Shown in pieces: positions 19,882 through 26,108 of a stretch of 64,000 nt of DNA. The notes under the pieces are model-generated. The model did not search any database. It had not been told where the DNA came from and was given only the letters and a program-made list of their open reading frames with translations. The stretch is from a virus, in IMG/VR virus record IMGVR_UViG_3300010354_000045, positions 32,001-96,000 of that record. One strand, given 5' to 3'. The position numbers and the translations under genes were made by a program. Position 1 is the first letter of the stretch, and the number at the start of each line of letters is the position of its first letter.

Positions 19882-20108
19882 GCCTAATTAGTCTTTCACC
19901 CGGTGAAATAGAAGAAAAACTAGTTAGGCTAGATCAAGAAGTTAAAAAATTTAAAGAAGAATTATTTCGACTTACTTGGTACATGCGAGGCGGGGTAAGT
20001 ATAAATGATTTATTATTTGTATACACCTATGATGATAGGCAAGCAATTTATACTGTAGTACAAGAAAATTTTGAGTTAACTAAAGAAACTCGAATGCCTT
20101 TACTTTAA
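19869..20108 (+). CDS. Unannotated -1-frame ORF; probable frameshift extension of gp26 (gp51/gpT-like)
   Basis: 79 sense codons: FFRLSLISLSPGEIEEKLVRLDQEVKKFKEELFRLTWYMRGGVSINDLLFVYTYDDRQAIYTVVQENFELTKETRMPLL. Opens on T TTT TTC; first ATG is at 19983. Confidence 0.75.
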   Translation, partial: FFRLSLISLSPGEIEEKLVRLDQEVKKFKEELFRLTWYMRGGVSINDLLFVYTYDDRQAIYTVVQENFELTKETRMPLL

Positions 20109-21286
20109 CGGCCCCTATCTCCAACATAGCCAAAATCAACTTTTTTAGTTACTGGATCTTGTATAAACCCCGGTGCATAATAAACCCACTTGTCTCTAGG
20201 ACTTGGAGTTAATTTTGACGGATCTGGTTGATCTCCGATACGGGGTGTTGTTTGTCCGGCACCGGAAGCTGCATTTGCTGCATTTTGTGAAGACTGTCCA
20301 GGTCGTTGCGAACTAGGTGGTTCACTAGTTCCCCCAATGTCAGTTTTTGAATCATCTGCTGGCCTAGCACCTTGACCACTAGACGATGGTTGACTAGACG
20401 CACCAGCTGCTTGTGCAATTTTAGCAGCTTCTTGGTCGTAGGTAGTTGTAAACATACTTAAGATCATATCTTCTAAAGTAGTTAAAAGAGGAGCAGCTCC
20501 TCTTTGAATTAAACCAGGAGGACATTTTCCTTCTTCAGCTGTTGTTGAACAAGCAAACCAATTTCCTATAGCTTTGGCATTTTCTTCGGAGTTGGCTAAA
20601 GTCATAAACATTGCCGCTAATACCTTATTTGGCAATTGAGTTTTTTCTTTCACCCATGCTCCTGCTCGTGTACTAAAAATCCCTATAGTTTTTGCAGCTA
20701 TAGCGGCAGGCATTTTTGCTAAAATACCAGTTCCTATTAATACTGTAACACGACCGGCTAATTTTGTAATCTGTTGATTTCTGTAGGCTTGGAAACTTTC
20801 AAGCATTTCTGGAGTAGGATTTTTTTCTAGTTCTTTTAATGCCCATTGCATATCTTGATAATAATCAATAAAGGGTTCTGCAAATGCATAGGCTATAGCA
20901 ACTCCGGATGTAGCGGAAACTAAATTTCTTACTATACTGCCTGTTTTTACTACACCTGATTTAGCTCCCGAAACAGCTGATGCTATAGAGGCACCTGCTC
21001 TCCTTAATCCGCTAGGAGCTCTAACTTTATTTGCTTGTTTAACAGCAGTATCTAATATACCAGGATTTTTTGCCACTAGCCTTTGTGCTTCAGGGCCTAA
21101 TCCTTTAGCAACAGCTTCTGCTTCGGCTCTTGTGGCAGGCCCTGCCCACTTGCCAGCAGAAACTAGCCCATCTTTAATAGCAGTAAGTAATTGTGATGAT
21201 TTAGTTCCAAAGAGACTTCCTAATGTTCTAGCGACTGCGCCATATTCATTTATTTGCTCTTTGTGAACGATGTCTAATATTTTCAT
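20105..21286 (-). CDS. Probable internal/ejected virion protein
   Basis: 393 aa; own late promoter; N-terminus MKILDIVHKEQINE; hydrophobic helices; low-complexity tail. Confidence 0.45.
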   Translation of the reverse strand: MKILDIVHKEQINEYGAVARTLGSLFGTKSSQLLTAIKDGLVSAGKWAGPATRAEAEAVAKGLGPEAQRLVAKNPGILDTAVKQANKVRAPSGLRRAGASIASAVSGAKSGVVKTGSIVRNLVSATSGVAIAYAFAEPFIDYYQDMQWALKELEKNPTPEMLESFQAYRNQQITKLAGRVTVLIGTGILAKMPAAIAAKTIGIFSTRAGAWVKEKTQLPNKVLAAMFMTLANSEENAKAIGNWFACSTTAEEGKCPPGLIQRGAAPLLTTLEDMILSMFTTTYDQEAAKIAQAAGASSQPSSSGQGARPADDSKTDIGGTSEPPSSQRPGQSSQNAANAASGAGQTTPRIGDQPDPSKLTPSPRDKWVYYAPGFIQDPVTKKVDFGYVGDRGR

Positions 21287-21302: not shown

Positions 21303-21309
21303 TATTTAT
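21303..21309 (-). promoter_or_regulatory. Late promoter ATAAATA
   Basis: 16 nt upstream of ATG 21286. Confidence 0.6.
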
Positions 21310-21314
21310 CGAGA

Positions 21315-21800
21315 TTTAAAAGAAGAACTACGTTCTTCTGTTCTTCGCTATCGCTCGAACTTTTTTGTATTTTTAATGCGAAGCATTTAAATATTATCTA
21401 GATTGTTCAGTCACACTTAGCCCGTTAGGGCTAAGAAACATTATCTGAGTCGAACATGTCACACAGCGTTAGGACTATAAATGTTTGCTATTCTGTACAA
21501 AATAACACTATATTGTATAGAATAGTTAACATTATGCATAGGCGGTTGTCCGGTACCTACTCATCCCGTCTTATCACAACGGCAGGCCTGTACTGATACG
21601 CTATCATCTGTACAGCCGTTAGGGAGTTACCCTTCTTTTAGCCTTTTTAAAATTTTCCTGTATAGCAAATCCGGTTGTGTGTAGGCATATCCGAACATCG
21701 TCCTGTAAAGGATAGTTGCTATAAACTCACAACGGCGAGAGATTTCCTTACCCTGCGACATCACCAGGGATTCGGGCGCCCGAAATTAGCTGACGCTTGC
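21315..21800 (-). ncRNA. Large structured non-coding element (candidate ncRNA and/or replication origin)
   Basis: The only ~0.5-kb gap in the window. At least 10 helices can be read by eye. It starts at the GIY-YIG stop codon. Confidence 0.6.
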
Positions 21801-21801
21801 T

Positions 21802-22245
21802 TTAACCGTTTGATCGAGCCTGTGCTTGTTCTTGTAGGCGCTGCCTTAAGATGTTTGACCCACCAATTCTACAGTTGATAATACCGTTATAGTATTCGTC
21901 TGTTTCAAGAACTCTGCGTTCAAACTGTTCTCTTGCCTCTAGATATGACATTTCTGCCTTAGATTTGCAGTAATAAAGTATTTCTCTAGTAAATTTTTCC
22001 GGACCTAATGCGTGTACGTCTGCCTGTAGTTTGTCTGATGAGCCCCAATAATTTCGCCAATCGCTTTCGACGGTACTACGTCTTTTAAGTTTTTTGCCTT
22101 TGAGAGGAGGTCGTGTTTTTTTAAATTGGGCTAGTTTTTTGCCTATATATTTTTGTCCGGTTGTAAGGTTGGTAATAAGATAAACAAAGCCAATATAGCC
22201 TTCAGGAATTTCTTCTACTAATTGATTTTGATGTGTCCATGACAT
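21802..22245 (-). CDS. Stand-alone GIY-YIG endonuclease (T4 endonuclease II-like architecture)
   Basis: GFVYLITN...KYIGKK, YWGSS, F.REIL, catalytic-type E in YLEAREQ, YYN. No C-terminal DNA-binding module. Alternative GTG start at 22248. Confidence 0.85.
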   Translation of the reverse strand: MSWTHQNQLVEEIPEGYIGFVYLITNLTTGQKYIGKKLAQFKKTRPPLKGKKLKRRSTVESDWRNYWGSSDKLQADVHALGPEKFTREILYYCKSKAEMSYLEAREQFERRVLETDEYYNGIINCRIGGSNILRQRLQEQAQARSNG

Positions 22246-22248
22246 CAC

Positions 22249-22503
22249 TTATGTATTATCTTGAGACTGATCCTTCAGTTGTTTTTGAGCCTCTCGATAC
22301 TTTGGACTTTTTATTTTAGGTTTCTTTTTTCGTATTTCTAAAATTTCTTCCCTCATAGCCAAAGCAATGCGCCTTATTTCATATAGATGTTTTCTTAGCC
22401 TAATTCCGCTAGCATGTGATTCGTAGTTTTCCCATGTTTGATTTTCCTCAAAGTAGGCTCGAAACTCTTTCATCAATGCTTCATGTAAATGCCTAGTGGT
22501 CAT
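22249..22503 (-). CDS. Small basic helical protein, possibly Hc1-like nucleic-acid binder
   Basis: 84 aa; ASGIRLRKHLYEIRRIA..REEI resembles the AAGTRARK pattern; Lys-rich tail. Confidence 0.4.
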   Translation of the reverse strand: MTTRHLHEALMKEFRAYFEENQTWENYESHASGIRLRKHLYEIRRIALAMREEILEIRKKKPKIKSPKYREAQKQLKDQSQDNT

Positions 22504-24275
22504 TCTTCAATTTCTATGTCGTTAGCATAACTGGTAAAGCCATTTTCTTTGATAACTTTAAGTACATTATTAACTCGACCAATTAATTCATCTTTGTGAC
22601 TGATTAAGAAAACATTTTTCTTACGTTCACGTGATATTTTTTTAAGTACTGCTAAAGCGCTTTCAACACCGCTAGCATCTAAACCGTTATCAATTAATTC
22701 ATCAATAAACAATAGATTGATACCTTGATATAAACTTTCCCATACATCTCTAAATGCCCATGATAACGATAGTATTAACCTATTTCGTTCGCCCCGTGAC
22801 AAGTTGTCAAAATCTAAATCTTGACCAAGTTGCATAATTTCGACTGTTAAATCATTTAAGAACGTAACAGTATGTGGTAATCCCATTTTATCTAGATAAT
22901 AAGTTAGTCTATTGTTAAGATAAGCTAGGTTTTGATCAATAATCTTTTTACGAATAAAGCTATCTTTACTAGTTAATAACTTTAACAGAAATTCTTGATG
23001 ATCCTTGAGAGTAGTTAGTTCATTTATACTATCCCAAGATATCTCTTGCATAGCAGTATTACGAAGTTCATCAATTTGCTCTTGATAAGGGTCAGTCTCA
23101 CCTGCCTTAACAGTTAATTGTGTTTCAAGAGTTTGAATAGTATTTTGATGTTTTAATGCTTCTTCAACAGTATCGTAATAGGTAACAGGCCTGCCATTAA
23201 TGTCTCCTATTTCATCAAGTTCTGTAATAATTTTAGCTAGATCATTTGTGACTTTAGTTAGATATTTGTTAGCTTCATCGAGTTGCGACTGAGCAGTGCT
23301 AGTCATTTCTGTATGCTTGTGATCTTGTAGTTGCTGTTCACAAGCATGACATTTTTTATTAGCTAATTTTTCTAATTCACCTGCATATTTTTTAACAGTT
23401 CGTTCTGCTTGGGCTACTGCACTTTCTAAAGTAGCACGTTCTTTGTTTAGACTTTTTAATTTTGCCGCCTGTTCGTCATAAATTTTTAATTTTGCATGTG
23501 CATCTAATTCAACGGCAATGTCTACATTTTCAAGTTCGATAATTGCTCGACCTATTTTTTCTAAATCGTTATCTCGCTGAGTGTTCCATGCATTTTGTCT
23601 AATGATTAATGCATCGATACTTTGTTGAATCTTGTCGTTTGATTTTTTAGTAGCTTCTAAATTGGCAGTTTCTTGAGTGATTGCTTCTTTAGTTTGTCTA
23701 ATTAATTCTTTAAGAGTTTCTGCCTTTTCAGAAAGTAGGGTAATGCCTAACAATTGCTCAATTACAGCACGTTGATCTGCTGCTTTCATTGAAAGAAACG
23801 GTTCAGTGTAGGTATTAAGTGCAATAATATGCTTAAACATATCATGACTCATGCCTAACAAATCATCTAAATCTTTTTGTGTTTCTCTCATATCTCCTTG
23901 AGAGTCATCATTTTCTTCTGAAGTCTGCTCTTCGTTATTGACAAAGAACTTTAACACATTAGGTTTTCTTCCTCTTTCTATTCTATAATCAATGCCATTA
24001 TTTTCAAAAGTCAATGTTACTAACATATTTTTGTTGTTAATCTTATTAATAAGATTGTCTTTTTTAATGTTAGTAAGTGCATTACCAAACAGTGCATAAC
24101 TTAGTGCATTGACAATAGTAGTTTTACCAGTACCGTTACGAGCACCGCTGTCATCCCCTCCTTGGTCTAAATTTTCGCCTAGCACAAGTGTTAGATTTTC
24201 TTTGGCAAAATTAACAGCTTGAGTTTGATTGCCAACACTCATGAAATTTTTAACAGTTAATTCTTTTATTTTCAT
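22500..24275 (-). CDS. gp46: Recombination ATPase (gp46/Rad50/SbcC-like)
   Basis: KNFMSVGN, Walker A GARNGTGKT, zinc hook CHAC, signature LSRGE, Walker B LLFIDE, ISH. Confidence 0.95.
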   Translation of the reverse strand: MKIKELTVKNFMSVGNQTQAVNFAKENLTLVLGENLDQGGDDSGARNGTGKTTIVNALSYALFGNALTNIKKDNLINKINNKNMLVTLTFENNGIDYRIERGRKPNVLKFFVNNEEQTSEENDDSQGDMRETQKDLDDLLGMSHDMFKHIIALNTYTEPFLSMKAADQRAVIEQLLGITLLSEKAETLKELIRQTKEAITQETANLEATKKSNDKIQQSIDALIIRQNAWNTQRDNDLEKIGRAIIELENVDIAVELDAHAKLKIYDEQAAKLKSLNKERATLESAVAQAERTVKKYAGELEKLANKKCHACEQQLQDHKHTEMTSTAQSQLDEANKYLTKVTNDLAKIITELDEIGDINGRPVTYYDTVEEALKHQNTIQTLETQLTVKAGETDPYQEQIDELRNTAMQEISWDSINELTTLKDHQEFLLKLLTSKDSFIRKKIIDQNLAYLNNRLTYYLDKMGLPHTVTFLNDLTVEIMQLGQDLDFDNLSRGERNRLILSLSWAFRDVWESLYQGINLLFIDELIDNGLDASGVESALAVLKKISRERKKNVFLISHKDELIGRVNNVLKVIKENGFTSYANDIEIEE

Positions 24276-25285
24276 AGGCTATTATAAATTGCAAGCAATG
24301 TATTTTTGTCGTAGGTGTCGGAATCGATGTTTATGATTTGACTAGACACAATTTGATCAACACTTTCAAATGCTTGTATATCAATGTTTGTGTTAATTTC
24401 AACTTCTTTTCGTTCTGTGATTAAAGTAAGTTCTCGAATGTCATAGTCTTCGATAAATTTTTCTTTAATAAAACTTGCTTCTTCGTAAGTGATATCAATA
24501 TCTAGTGTAACACGTAGATGCTGTTTTGGTTTAATTAGTGTATCTGCTTCATCAATAAGTTGACTTAATTTTACAGTTCTAAATGTTGGTTGAGAATCCC
24601 AACTGTAAAATACAGGCTTTTTACCCCACTCAAGAATCATCATTCCTCGATCGTCATCCCATGCATCAGCATAGTTATGGGGAAAGGCATTGCCTATGTA
24701 ATGCATATTCTTTTTACTCTGTCGTTTATGAAAATGTCCACTAAACCCCATTTCATAATTTTGAAAAGCATCTAATTGTATCTCGCCGTGATCAGGCATT
24801 TGAACCATGGCGTTCATGTAAAAATGTGGTAATTCAAAGTGTCCAAATATGTATCTTGCTTTTGTTTTTCCTATAGCTTTCCACTCTTCGCCGACTAACC
24901 AAGGACACATAGTAACGTCACCTACAGTCATAGGCTTGTGAACAATGGTTATGCCGGGAATATATTTGCCAAACTCGACAGAGTGGATATCACGTTTATC
25001 TTTATAGTATAAATCATGATTACCTGGAAAAAAGAAAAACTGATCAAATGCTGCACCTAATTTTTCTAAAGCTCTAAGGCTATAGTCCATGGTGGTGATA
25101 TTAAGACTATTGCGATTATGGTGCCAGTCACCAAGGAAAATTCCTGTATCGCAACCTTCTTCCTTTGCTTTGGCAATGAACCAATCGACAAATTCTTCAC
25201 AGTCTTGATTATGTACTTGACTGTTAGATTTAAGACCGAAATGTATGTCTGTAAAACAGGCAACTTTTTTAAACAAATTAGTCAT
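24272..25285 (-). CDS. gp47: Recombination nuclease (gp47/Mre11/SbcD-like)
   Basis: TDIHFG, LGDWHH, PGNHD, GHFE, SGHFH. Start revised to ATG 25285. Confidence 0.95.
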   Translation of the reverse strand: MTNLFKKVACFTDIHFGLKSNSQVHNQDCEEFVDWFIAKAKEEGCDTGIFLGDWHHNRNSLNITTMDYSLRALEKLGAAFDQFFFFPGNHDLYYKDKRDIHSVEFGKYIPGITIVHKPMTVGDVTMCPWLVGEEWKAIGKTKARYIFGHFELPHFYMNAMVQMPDHGEIQLDAFQNYEMGFSGHFHKRQSKKNMHYIGNAFPHNYADAWDDDRGMMILEWGKKPVFYSWDSQPTFRTVKLSQLIDEADTLIKPKQHLRVTLDIDITYEEASFIKEKFIEDYDIRELTLITERKEVEINTNIDIQAFESVDQIVSSQIINIDSDTYDKNTLLAIYNSL

Positions 25286-26108
25286 CTCCGCCCTCAGAAT
25301 ATCTTCTAACAGCAGCTTCATGTTCGCCCTGTCCTGTTCTACTATAACTGGGATTCATACCGTTAATTTCTAAAATATCGTCTCTAATGTTTTGATTGCG
25401 TTTTTCAATGTTGATAACTCTAACGAATGAATTAGTGACAGCAGCAGTAAAGTAAGCAAAAGGATTATCAGATTTACTTTCATCGAATTGTAGTCCTATC
25501 TGTGTTAGTTGTAAAATTGCTTGGCCTTTCATTTCGTCGTTATAGGTATAACCACGCACGTTGCCTCTTGTGGCATAACGCTCGCAAAGTTTGATCATCA
25601 TTCTTGCTAGATTATTTGTAATTTGTCCAGCATCTTTGTCAAAATGTCCTTTTATAAGATCACCTTTCCAATGAGACTTTCCTACACACTCTAGTTCATC
25701 AGATTCATTAAATTTCCAATGCTGAAAAGGAGGAAAGTTAACTTTGTCTCTATGATCAGCTTGACTTTTAGGATTTTTCTTTCTGGTACTGTTCATAGGA
25801 ATATGATCGAAAGTCATAATCCTAAAGATTAAATCTGTCTTAGGAATTTTTTTGTAGTCTATTTCGCAGTCAGCTTGTTTGACTTTTTCGCCCGCGGATT
25901 TACGACGTTCATAGTCTTCTTGTCCCAATCGTTTGGCTCTATTGCGTTTAGCTTCTGCTATAGTCCTAATATTAATTTTTTCTAAACTTGGTAAGATAAT
26001 GTCGTATTGGTGATGTTCGGGTTGAGTAAAACTACAATACGAGCTTTTCGATTTATGTATTTCTGATAACATATCCTTGTTGTTTAGATAGTTTATTTTT
26101 GTAGTCAT
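25278..26108 (-). CDS. gp55: Late-transcription sigma factor (gp55-like)
   Basis: NYLNNKDML, RGYTYNDEM, FDESKSDNPFAYFT..SFVRVINIEK. Adjacent to gp47/gp46 as in T4-like phages. Confidence 0.9.
   Translation of the reverse strand: MTTKINYLNNKDMLSEIHKSKSSYCSFTQPEHHQYDIILPSLEKINIRTIAEAKRNRAKRLGQEDYERRKSAGEKVKQADCEIDYKKIPKTDLIFRIMTFDHIPMNSTRKKNPKSQADHRDKVNFPPFQHWKFNESDELECVGKSHWKGDLIKGHFDKDAGQITNNLARMMIKLCERYATRGNVRGYTYNDEMKGQAILQLTQIGLQFDESKSDNPFAYFTAAVTNSFVRVINIEKRNQNIRDDILEINGMNPSYSRTGQGEHEAAVRRYSEGGDD

What the first reader, a model, noticed from the sequence alone, without database searches (positions are those of the whole stretch)
21315..22245. Compact GIY-YIG nuclease followed directly by a ~490-nt highly structured non-coding element
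Seen: the only long non-coding stretch in 64 kb begins at the nuclease stop and is almost all helices. On the minus strand: palindrome TTCGGGCGCCCGAA (21771-21784); CCCTG/CAGGG; CTCGC/GTGAG; TATAGCAA/TTGCTATA (21716-23 with 21661-68) closing a junction with TCCT/AGGA and TTCGG/CCGGA; AACGGC/GCCGTT enclosing CTGTAC/GTACAG and TGATA-GCG-TATCA; GTAGG..CGG-ACAA-CCG-CCTAT; a long AT-rich hairpin (~21480-21535); CTTAGCCC-TAAC-GGGCTAAG. Three G-U pairs favour the minus strand and one favours plus. It sits at the 3' end of the sigma70 gp55-47-46 operon, so it is probably transcribed early. The nuclease has a basic loop (KKTRPPLKGKKLKRR) and no DNA-binding domain. Inference: a large phage ncRNA that I cannot match to a known family, possibly partnering the nuclease as an RNP or forming an R-loop primer. 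RNA guidance is speculation.
Basis: partly seen in the sequence, partly recalled or inferred. Interest (0 to 1): 0.82.

Follow-up and report, generated by a model that had tools for sequence, protein, structure and literature searches.

The report
Phage origin-like RNA beside resolvase-like nuclease
The folded stretch after this small phage nuclease is a real, partly catalogued RNA that most likely helps start copying of the phage's own DNA and is also carried by small helper-dependent phages, while the nuclease looks like a swappable branch-cutting enzyme, not an RNA-guided one.

Summary
The ~500-nt element is real. It folds on the minus strand, with covarying helices and two pseudoknots. Its 5' 141 nt match Rfam Polynucleobacter-1 (74.6 bits, cut-off 37); the rest matches no family. 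A specific GIY-YIG RNP is not supported. The same gene slot often holds an unrelated PD-(D/E)XK nuclease (PF24608, resolvase label) beside an equally similar RNA, and 0 of 40 records carry both nucleases. One complete 32-kb siphovirus has the RNA with endonuclease VII instead, and cultured phages have the nuclease without the RNA. The nuclease is therefore probably a junction resolvase stand-in. The element's 3' end holds two direct repeats whose 6-8-nt tags change together as identical copies (187 of 188), then DNA-type mini-hairpins on both strands. 31-kb siphoviruses with no late sigma or recognisable replication genes keep it behind a T4-type late promoter. Best reading (0.45, inferred, untested): an R-loop-primed, ColE1-like origin that satellites borrow. 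Expression is not shown. This scan met the system before on four other genomes (unchecked AI notes); nuclease swapping, satellites and the mini-hairpin counts were tested here.

The parts
25278..26108 (-). T4 gp55-type late sigma factor, first gene of the operon
   Evidence: PHROG 12791, E 3e-74
24272..25321 (-). gp47-like metallophosphoesterase nuclease
   Evidence: Pfam Metallophos; gp47 name inferred from context
22500..24275 (-). gp46-like SMC/AAA ATPase
   Evidence: Pfam AAA_23, SMC_N; gp46 name inferred from context
22249..22503 (-). small basic protein, weakly Hc1-like
   Evidence: PF07432 E 5e-4, under cut-off; the ORF in the same slot of L573 scores 6e-9
21802..22245 (-). 147-aa GIY-YIG nuclease (PF19835, PHROG 447), inferred junction resolvase stand-in
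   Evidence: mutual exclusion with PF24608
21815..21823 (-). AGGC motif at the inferred RNA 5' end, inside the nuclease's last codons
   Evidence: inside the ORF in 98 of 101 loci that have it; follows TAAATA in 10 of 11 siphovirus loci
21660..21801 (-). 5' domain = Rfam RF01718 Polynucleobacter-1
   Evidence: 74.6 bits, gathering 37, model 1-141
21463..21645 (-). central domain with two pseudoknots (21598-21604 with 21463-21469; about 21575-21579 with 21545-21549) and the conserved GGTAC..ACCGCC junction
21481..21532 (-). AT-rich hairpin, lineage-specific insertion
   Evidence: 87% gaps in 38 relatives
21439..21464 (-). twin repeat copy 1 (ACTC plus tag AGATAAT)
21416..21435 (-). hairpin between the twin copies
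   Evidence: pair 21432-21419, E about 0
21392..21416 (-). twin repeat copy 2 (ATCT plus tag AGATAAT)
21375..21387 (+). DNA mini-hairpin GCGAAGC (21378-21384) on the template strand
   Evidence: motif class from PMC13037366
21347..21354 (-). DNA mini-hairpin GCGATAGC on the non-template strand
   Evidence: listed in Table 1 of PMC13037366
21321..21339 (-). terminal hairpin with a C-GTA-G triloop, then a short T run
   Evidence: covariation, loop census; not called a terminator by the scan
21303..21310 (-). late promoter (TAAATA type) of the next gene
   Evidence: TAAATA precedes 30 of 142 ORFs in the record, 3.6 expected
20105..21286 (-). 393-aa ORF of no known family; this slot varies among relatives

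Best explanation
The element is a transcription-primed replication origin that works like the ColE1 RNA II origin. RNA polymerase reads through from the nuclease gene, or from a late promoter in the small siphoviruses. The 5' ~400 nt fold into a pseudoknotted RNA (folding shown by covariation; transcription inferred). The twin repeats let one RNA copy pair with the template DNA strand of the other copy and so start a persistent R-loop (inferred). The RNA then primes leading-strand synthesis near the AT-rich stretch after copy 2. The mini-hairpins exposed on both single strands serve as loading or priming signals (inferred from the motif class). Replication-less 31-kb siphoviruses keep the element to use a helper's replisome (inferred). 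The GIY-YIG protein is not a dedicated partner: it is a branch or junction resolvase that stands in for PF24608 or endonuclease VII (about 0.7 on its own). It may act at the origin's branched intermediates, but nothing shows this.
For: Twin tags are identical within an element but differ across lineages: 187 of 188, 14 tags, shuffled 0.23, best pair picked per locus. Alignment-based check: six tag positions identical in 81 of 81. Two positions show 14 joint changes each, E about 0. No complementary third partner in the RNA or nuclease gene (50 sequences). C(GNA)G triloop hairpins in the last 150 nt: 62 sense and 97 template in 153 elements, against 0 and 2 in 145 controls. The middle motif's loops include 65 GNYA against 58 GNRA, matching the DNA mini-hairpin set described at phage priming sites. 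Three complete ~31-kb siphoviruses carry the element, lack the late sigma, show no polymerase, primase or replicative helicase family among the ORFs scanned, and have TAAATA before the RNA. One copy in the own record. Nuclease: 0 of 40 records have both PF19835 and PF24608; G021 has endonuclease VII instead; 8 of 10 cultured PF19835 phages lack endonuclease VII over the cut-off.
Against: No transcript, R-loop or origin activity is shown. Fourfold-site skew follows the coding strand on both sides, so there is no independent origin signature. The 3' motifs found no plasmid match. The twin copies differ at three fixed middle positions, which a simple RNA-DNA hybrid does not explain, and the few mismatches do not settle which copy invades. 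T4 origins need no structured RNA (PMC3016281). The satellites also keep a trans-acting nuclease, so retention alone does not prove a cis role. G021 has an unassigned AAA ATPase, and many small ORFs have no family. Two cultured phages have both PF19835 and endonuclease VII. Many IMG/VR records are fragments. The resolvase role of PF24608 rests on a PHROG label.
Confidence: 0.45

Rival explanations
1. A trans-acting large ncRNA (packaging, transcription control or helper interference). The twin tags are two binding sites for one protein or one target, and the terminal hairpin is a terminator.
For: Ornate pseudoknotted fold; own promoter in siphoviruses; moved 180 kb from the nuclease in G013; terminal hairpin with a T run.
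Against: Does not explain DNA-type hairpins on the template strand. No partner or target found in the locus or genome. Frequent joint A/G switches in both tags are hard to get from a protein site (inference).
Confidence: 0.22
2. The whole element folds as single-stranded DNA (origin, packaging or recombination signal), and any transcript is incidental.
For: DNA-type loops at the 3' end; GNYA loops also occur between the twins (16 against 35 GNRA); G-T wobble can also give a strand bias.
Against: About 8% G-U cells and two pseudoknots are more typical of RNA (general knowledge). A promoter sits right before the 5' motif in 10 of 11 siphovirus loci.
Confidence: 0.12
3. A specific GIY-YIG ribonucleoprotein, RNA-guided or RNA-inhibited, with the tags as short guides.
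For: 66 of 68 RNA-first viral loci with room have PF19835 within 1.5 kb, not dereplicated. Small siphoviruses keep the pair in swapped order, 26 nt apart. The RNA overlaps the ORF end; the protein has a basic hairpin.
Against: The RNA beside PF24608 in L673 is as close to the window's (78% over 422 nt) as one beside a GIY-YIG (L003, 77% over 425 nt). 39 of 62 PF24608 loci have the RNA downstream. G013 and G021 have the RNA and no PF19835. Melnitz, nested in the RNA-linked protein clade, has no RNA by three searches. No guide slot, no target match, no tag avoidance.
Confidence: 0.08
4. A cis-regulatory UTR of a flanking gene, as first listed for Polynucleobacter-1.
For: PMC2864571 lists the motif as probably cis-regulatory; it lies between two same-strand genes.
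Against: The downstream gene varies in identity and strand and has its own late promoter after the terminal hairpin. The upstream gene is swappable or absent.
Confidence: 0.07

Closest known systems
Polynucleobacter-1 RNA motif (Rfam RF01718; Weinberg 2010, PMC2864571)
   Same: The 5' 141 nt match the full model above the cut-off. Some rows of the paper's own alignment run on to about 300 nt, through the central junction.
   Different: The full element is ~500 nt with two pseudoknots, twin tags and DNA mini-hairpins. It lies in uncultured large T4-like phages and small siphoviruses. Four marine-type loci (L060, L069, L073, L078) escape the model. No function was given in the parts of the paper I could read.
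ColE1 RNA II primer origin with downstream n'-pas (passages in PMC3640518)
   Same: A long transcript upstream of single-strand priming signals. The idea that an upstream RNA segment pairs with a downstream template segment is recalled from Masukata and Tomizawa 1990 (title seen only).
   Different: No RNA I or other ColE1 family match, no plasmid sequence match, phage context, lineage-specific twin tags, mini-hairpins on both strands.
T4 oriF/oriG R-loop origins (PMC3016281)
   Same: Transcript-primed initiation in a T4-like phage, an AT-rich stretch downstream, and a position near a transcription strand switch (about 4.5 kb away here).
   Different: T4's origins are ~100 bp, a middle promoter plus an unwinding element, with no specific sequence needed. 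This element is a conserved folded ~500-mer.
T4 endonuclease VII and PF24608/PHROG 244 (labelled RusA-like resolvase)
   Same: PF24608 fills the same slot after gp46 and never co-occurs with PF19835 in 40 records; endonuclease VII is present in G021, which lacks PF19835.
   Different: Unrelated folds. The window protein is GIY-YIG, nearest I-TevI catalytic domain (Z 8.4, rmsd 2.7, 82 residues). Its activity is untested.
OMEGA systems (TnpB/IscB with omega-RNA, HEARO) (recalled)
   Same: A compact nuclease with a structured RNA that overlaps the gene end.
   Different: No variable guide, no exclusive protein partner, GIY-YIG and not RuvC/HNH, single conserved copy.

Membership tests
Rfam RF01718 Polynucleobacter-1 | score over the gathering cut-off across the model | tested here: met
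   74.6 against 37 bits, positions 1-141
Rfam RF01718 Polynucleobacter-1 | cis-regulatory link to a fixed flanking gene | tested here: not met
   flanking genes vary on both sides
GIY-YIG, PF19835 | profile match over the cut-off | tested here: met
   120.9 against 25 bits
GIY-YIG, PF19835 | GIY-YIG fold and invariant catalytic-type residues | tested here: met
   pLDDT 92.9; I-TevI Z 8.4; G19, Y22, Y33, G35, E103, N120 invariant in 36; mapping to catalytic roles is recalled
Seg-type homing endonuclease | separate C-terminal DNA-binding domain | tested here: not met
   147 aa, one domain plus a terminal helix; longer forms were not searched
Holliday junction resolvase | takes the place of other resolvases in genomes | tested here: met
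   0 of 40 records with both PF19835 and PF24608; G021 has endonuclease VII; 2 of 10 cultured phages have both PF19835 and endonuclease VII
Holliday junction resolvase | homodimer | not tested
   no complex prediction was obtained
Holliday junction resolvase | symmetric cleavage of four-way junctions | not testable with these tools
   needs the purified protein
RNA-guided nuclease (OMEGA-like) | variable guide segment | tested here: not met
   the only variable run of 10 nt or more in 38 sequences is the inserted hairpin; no significant match elsewhere in the own record
RNA-guided nuclease (OMEGA-like) | RNA tied to one protein family | tested here: not met
ColE1-type RNA II origin | long structured transcript upstream of the start site | tested here: inconclusive
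   structure shown; transcript not shown
ColE1-type RNA II origin | antisense RNA I | tested here: not met
   no such Rfam match
ColE1-type RNA II origin | downstream single-strand priming signal | tested here: inconclusive
   mini-hairpins strongly enriched, no plasmid match
ColE1-type RNA II origin | persistent RNA-DNA hybrid and autonomous replication | not testable with these tools
   needs in vitro transcription or a replicon assay
T4 oriF/oriG | middle promoter plus AT-rich unwinding element | tested here: inconclusive
   AT-rich 21355-21392; promoter-like sites not above chance
Phage satellite (for G001, G002, G021) | lacks functions it uses: late sigma and replication genes | tested here: met
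   no PHROG 12791 in 3 complete records; no replication family in the ORFs scanned (28; 62 of 99 listed, the rest left out as structural or already scanned)
Phage satellite (for G001, G002, G021) | growth only with a helper | not testable with these tools
   uncultured

The most novel reading that the evidence does not exclude
A self-targeting origin RNA. A ~500-nt pseudoknotted transcript uses one of two co-evolving tags to invade its own DNA at the other tag. Whichever junction-cutting nuclease sits beside it (GIY-YIG, PD-(D/E)XK or endonuclease VII) processes the branched R-loop into a replication start. Replication-less 31-kb siphoviruses carry this module to parasitise the replisome of large T4-like phages. 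If the tag sets the site, it could be re-aimed.
Probability: 0.18. Interest if true: 0.9.

Novelty: new variant of a known kind. Interest (0 to 1): 0.68.

Why it matters
If right, an orphan Rfam motif from 2010 becomes the front part of a defined, sequence-specific replication origin in an abundant group of aquatic large T4-like phages, whereas T4's own origins share no motif. It would also point to a class of helper-dependent siphoviruses that take over such an origin. Separately, a family found in 474 phage records, often mislabelled 'NAD synthetase', gets a testable role as the junction resolvase of phages that lack endonuclease VII. Both claims can be tested with simple in vitro assays.

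Tried and rejected
Expression: five RNA-labelled runs held small shares. Four were laid, all contigs, and the listed pieces at depth 2-6 fell on the RNA and on flanking genes alike, so they say nothing about ends or level. Guide search: 21 twelve-mer matches elsewhere in the own record against 41 +/- 17 for control stretches; the longest (15 nt) lies in coding DNA. Tag avoidance: own tags at expected frequency in four genomes. Third pairing partner for the tags: none. Skew: the cumulative G-C minimum lies near the strand switch, and fourfold sites follow the coding strand. Plasmid search with the 3' motif: only chance hits. No blastn match of the element in cultured phages. No PDB sequence relative for either nuclease, and Foldseek gave no E <= 0.001 match. 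Group I or II intron, RNase P, tmRNA, hammerhead and C/D-box readings were considered from recalled motifs; Rfam and ARAGORN gave no support. The 5' pattern scan was mostly chance, as were 37 of 44 genome contigs pattern hits and L582, L585, L591. A dimer prediction for the nuclease was not obtained. The first FW twin count had an index error and was redone. No covariance model was built.

Full report
Observation. The window lies in a 161,493-nt virus record, 43% complete, with T4-like portal, baseplate and late-sigma genes. The ORF at 21802-22245 is PF19835 SegE_GIY-YIG and PHROG 447, labelled 'NAD synthetase'. The gap after it is the longest ORF-free stretch of the record, 515 nt. Both strands fold better than 100 shuffles (z -3.4 and -3.6). 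Rfam gives one hit at gathering level in the window: Polynucleobacter-1 at 21660-21801, minus strand, 74.6 bits. A permissive scan of the gap adds only chance matches. So the element is partly catalogued.

Conservation and structure. 576 of 599 candidate viral stretches encode a relative. Among 104 loci with room, most have 450-600 nt before the next long ORF. I scored covariation with my own APC G-test against 20 tree-based simulations. In 63 central-domain sequences, the 15 column pairs with E <= 0.1 were 12 canonical pairs, 2 identical-letter pairs and 1 neighbour artefact. They include two pseudoknots. On a separate 21-sequence alignment, 84% of cells pair and 28 of 41 pairs change on both sides; 0 of 500 shuffles reach this and slid controls pair 38-45%. 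That structure was drawn from one of the rows, and the shuffles ignore relatedness. G-U outnumbers A-C 128 to 11, which fixes the minus strand. The 5' helix that overlaps the stop codon is 92% paired but not significant (E = 17).

Is the nuclease a partner? At first it looked so. In an RNA-first scan, 66 of 68 viral loci with 700 nt upstream had PF19835 nearby, not dereplicated. In L181 and L245 the order is swapped, RNA then nuclease. A second RNA pattern changed this. Of 28 unique, well-supported elements with 1.5 kb on both sides, 18 had PF19835 and 10 did not. In 8 of those 10 the slot after gp46 holds a different nuclease, directly or one gene away; four such proteins tested are PF24608 / PHROG 244, labelled RusA-like resolvase. 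Among 40 records, 28 carry PF19835 (10 of them cultured, found by tblastn), 8 carry PF24608, 4 neither and none both; many are fragments. From the other side, 39 of 62 unique PF24608 loci have the RNA within 1.5 kb downstream, 22 do not by HMM and 1 is too short. The RNA beside PF24608 in L673 is as close to the window's as one beside a GIY-YIG (78% over 422 nt against 77% over 425 nt). G013 (330 kb, 93%) has the RNA 180 kb from PF24608 and no PF19835. Complete G021 has the RNA, no PF19835, and endonuclease VII. Ten cultured phages have the nuclease with no long gap beside it; 0 of 5 tested hold RF01718, and Melnitz, whose protein nests in the RNA-linked clade, was negative in two more searches. 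Endonuclease VII passes the cut-off in only 2 of those 10. The fold is GIY-YIG, nearest the I-TevI catalytic domain. I infer that PF19835 is a branch or junction resolvase, the job endonuclease VII does for T4 packaging (PMC3016281, passages), and not an RNA-guided enzyme.

The twin tags. Two imperfect direct repeats (21439-21464 and 21392-21416) flank a hairpin. The letters after ACTC in copy 1 and after ATCT in copy 2 are identical for 6 nt or more in 187 of 188 elements, over 14 different tags; random pairing gives 0.23. The best pair per locus was picked, which favours identity. An alignment-based count without that choice gives 81 of 81 at six tag positions, and 89 marine-type elements show no mismatch there. 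Two positions switch together 14 times each on the tree. No third column in the RNA or gene is complementary, no target stands out in the genome, and the tags are not avoided. Identity without a partner is what strand exchange would need: the RNA of one copy pairing with the template strand of the other. This is inference, and the fixed three-letter difference in the middle is unexplained.

The 3' end is DNA-like. After copy 2, C(GNA)G triloop hairpins occur 62 times on the sense strand and 97 times on the template strand in 153 elements, against 0 and 2 in 145 control stretches. The conserved middle motif has loops GATA 30, GCAA 25, GTTA 25, GTAA 16, GAA 12, GAAA 9, GACA 7, with 36 of 185 not matched. 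These are the stable DNA mini-hairpins of PMC13037366, which reports them at G4, St-1 and alpha3 priming sites, in ssiA and in the N4 promoter, and finds the RNA version far less stable (section 2.3 read; passages). The window has one on each strand, 24 nt apart.

The small siphoviruses. G001, G002 and G021 are complete 31-32-kb records with terminase, portal, capsid and tail genes. They lack the late sigma. No polymerase, primase, replicative helicase or integrase family was found among the ORFs scanned (28; 62 of 99 listed), although G021 has an unassigned AAA ATPase and many ORFs have no family. TAAATA is the large phage's late promoter (30 of 142 ORFs, 3.6 expected). It precedes the RNA's AGGCAAA start in 10 of 11 siphovirus loci and in none of 101 large-phage loci, where the motif lies inside the nuclease ORF in 98. 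I read them as helper-dependent satellites. A satellite must keep what works in cis, which fits an origin, but it also keeps a nuclease, so the argument is not tight.

Verdict. The best model is an R-loop-primed origin that works like ColE1 RNA II (PMC3640518, passages) and T4 oriF without being a member of either: no RNA I, no plasmid match, and far more structure than T4's origins. Shown: structure, strand, twin identity, mini-hairpin enrichment, nuclease swapping, satellite-like carriers. Inferred: transcription, R-loop, priming, helper dependence, resolvase activity. Skew gives no independent support, and RNA contigs were uninformative.

Literature. Polynucleobacter-1 appears in one paper of the library. 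There I saw table passages, supplement hits and part of the alignment file; Additional files 1 and 3 could not be read and may describe the gene link. Searches for the pairing, a resolvase role or such satellites listed nothing relevant (listings only). Four earlier AI notes of this scan describe the same system on other genomes. Their 'neighbours, not partners' reading agrees with my tests, and one named the ColE1 comparison that I reuse. Gene names gp46 and gp47, the OMEGA features and the ColE1 hybrid mechanism are recalled.

Noticed in passing
G001, G002, G021, G031 (L423-L426, L747-L750): About 31-kb siphoviruses with T4-type late promoters but no late sigma or recognisable replication genes: candidate satellites of large T4-like phages.
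   Followed up: partly
PHROG 447 and the phage records: The family is labelled 'NAD synthetase' in many records but is a GIY-YIG nuclease.
   Followed up: yes
L362, L363, L369 (upstream of the nuclease): The nuclease is inverted, so the RNA lies upstream on the opposite strand.
   Followed up: partly
L356 and L352 (upstream of the nuclease): Small-phage nucleases of one clade sit behind different RNA versions: L356 has another twin repeat, L352 a short (~330 nt) hairpin form.
   Followed up: no
window 22890-22901: Exact 12-nt copy of twin 2 within gp46, antisense to its mRNA. Other tags would not fit the same codons, so probably chance.
   Followed up: partly
window 22249-22503: Small basic, weakly Hc1-like ORF; a small ORF sits between gp46 and either nuclease type in many loci.
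   Followed up: partly
L713, L717, L742, L744 (after the PF24608 gene): Non-coding, apparently structured stretches that my HMMs missed; possibly further diverged or different RNAs.
   Followed up: no
L547, L558 (5' part of the RNA): Several AGGCA repeats in an extended 5' leader; also three in L181.
   Followed up: no
L301, L306, L310, L313, L331, L333, L342: Seven Endozoicomonas hits of the RNA pattern that are not the element by HMM; probably a repeated element of that genus.
   Followed up: no
L081-L085, L316, L323, L335: Bacterial MAG contigs that carry the phage locus, probably binned phage DNA.
   Followed up: no
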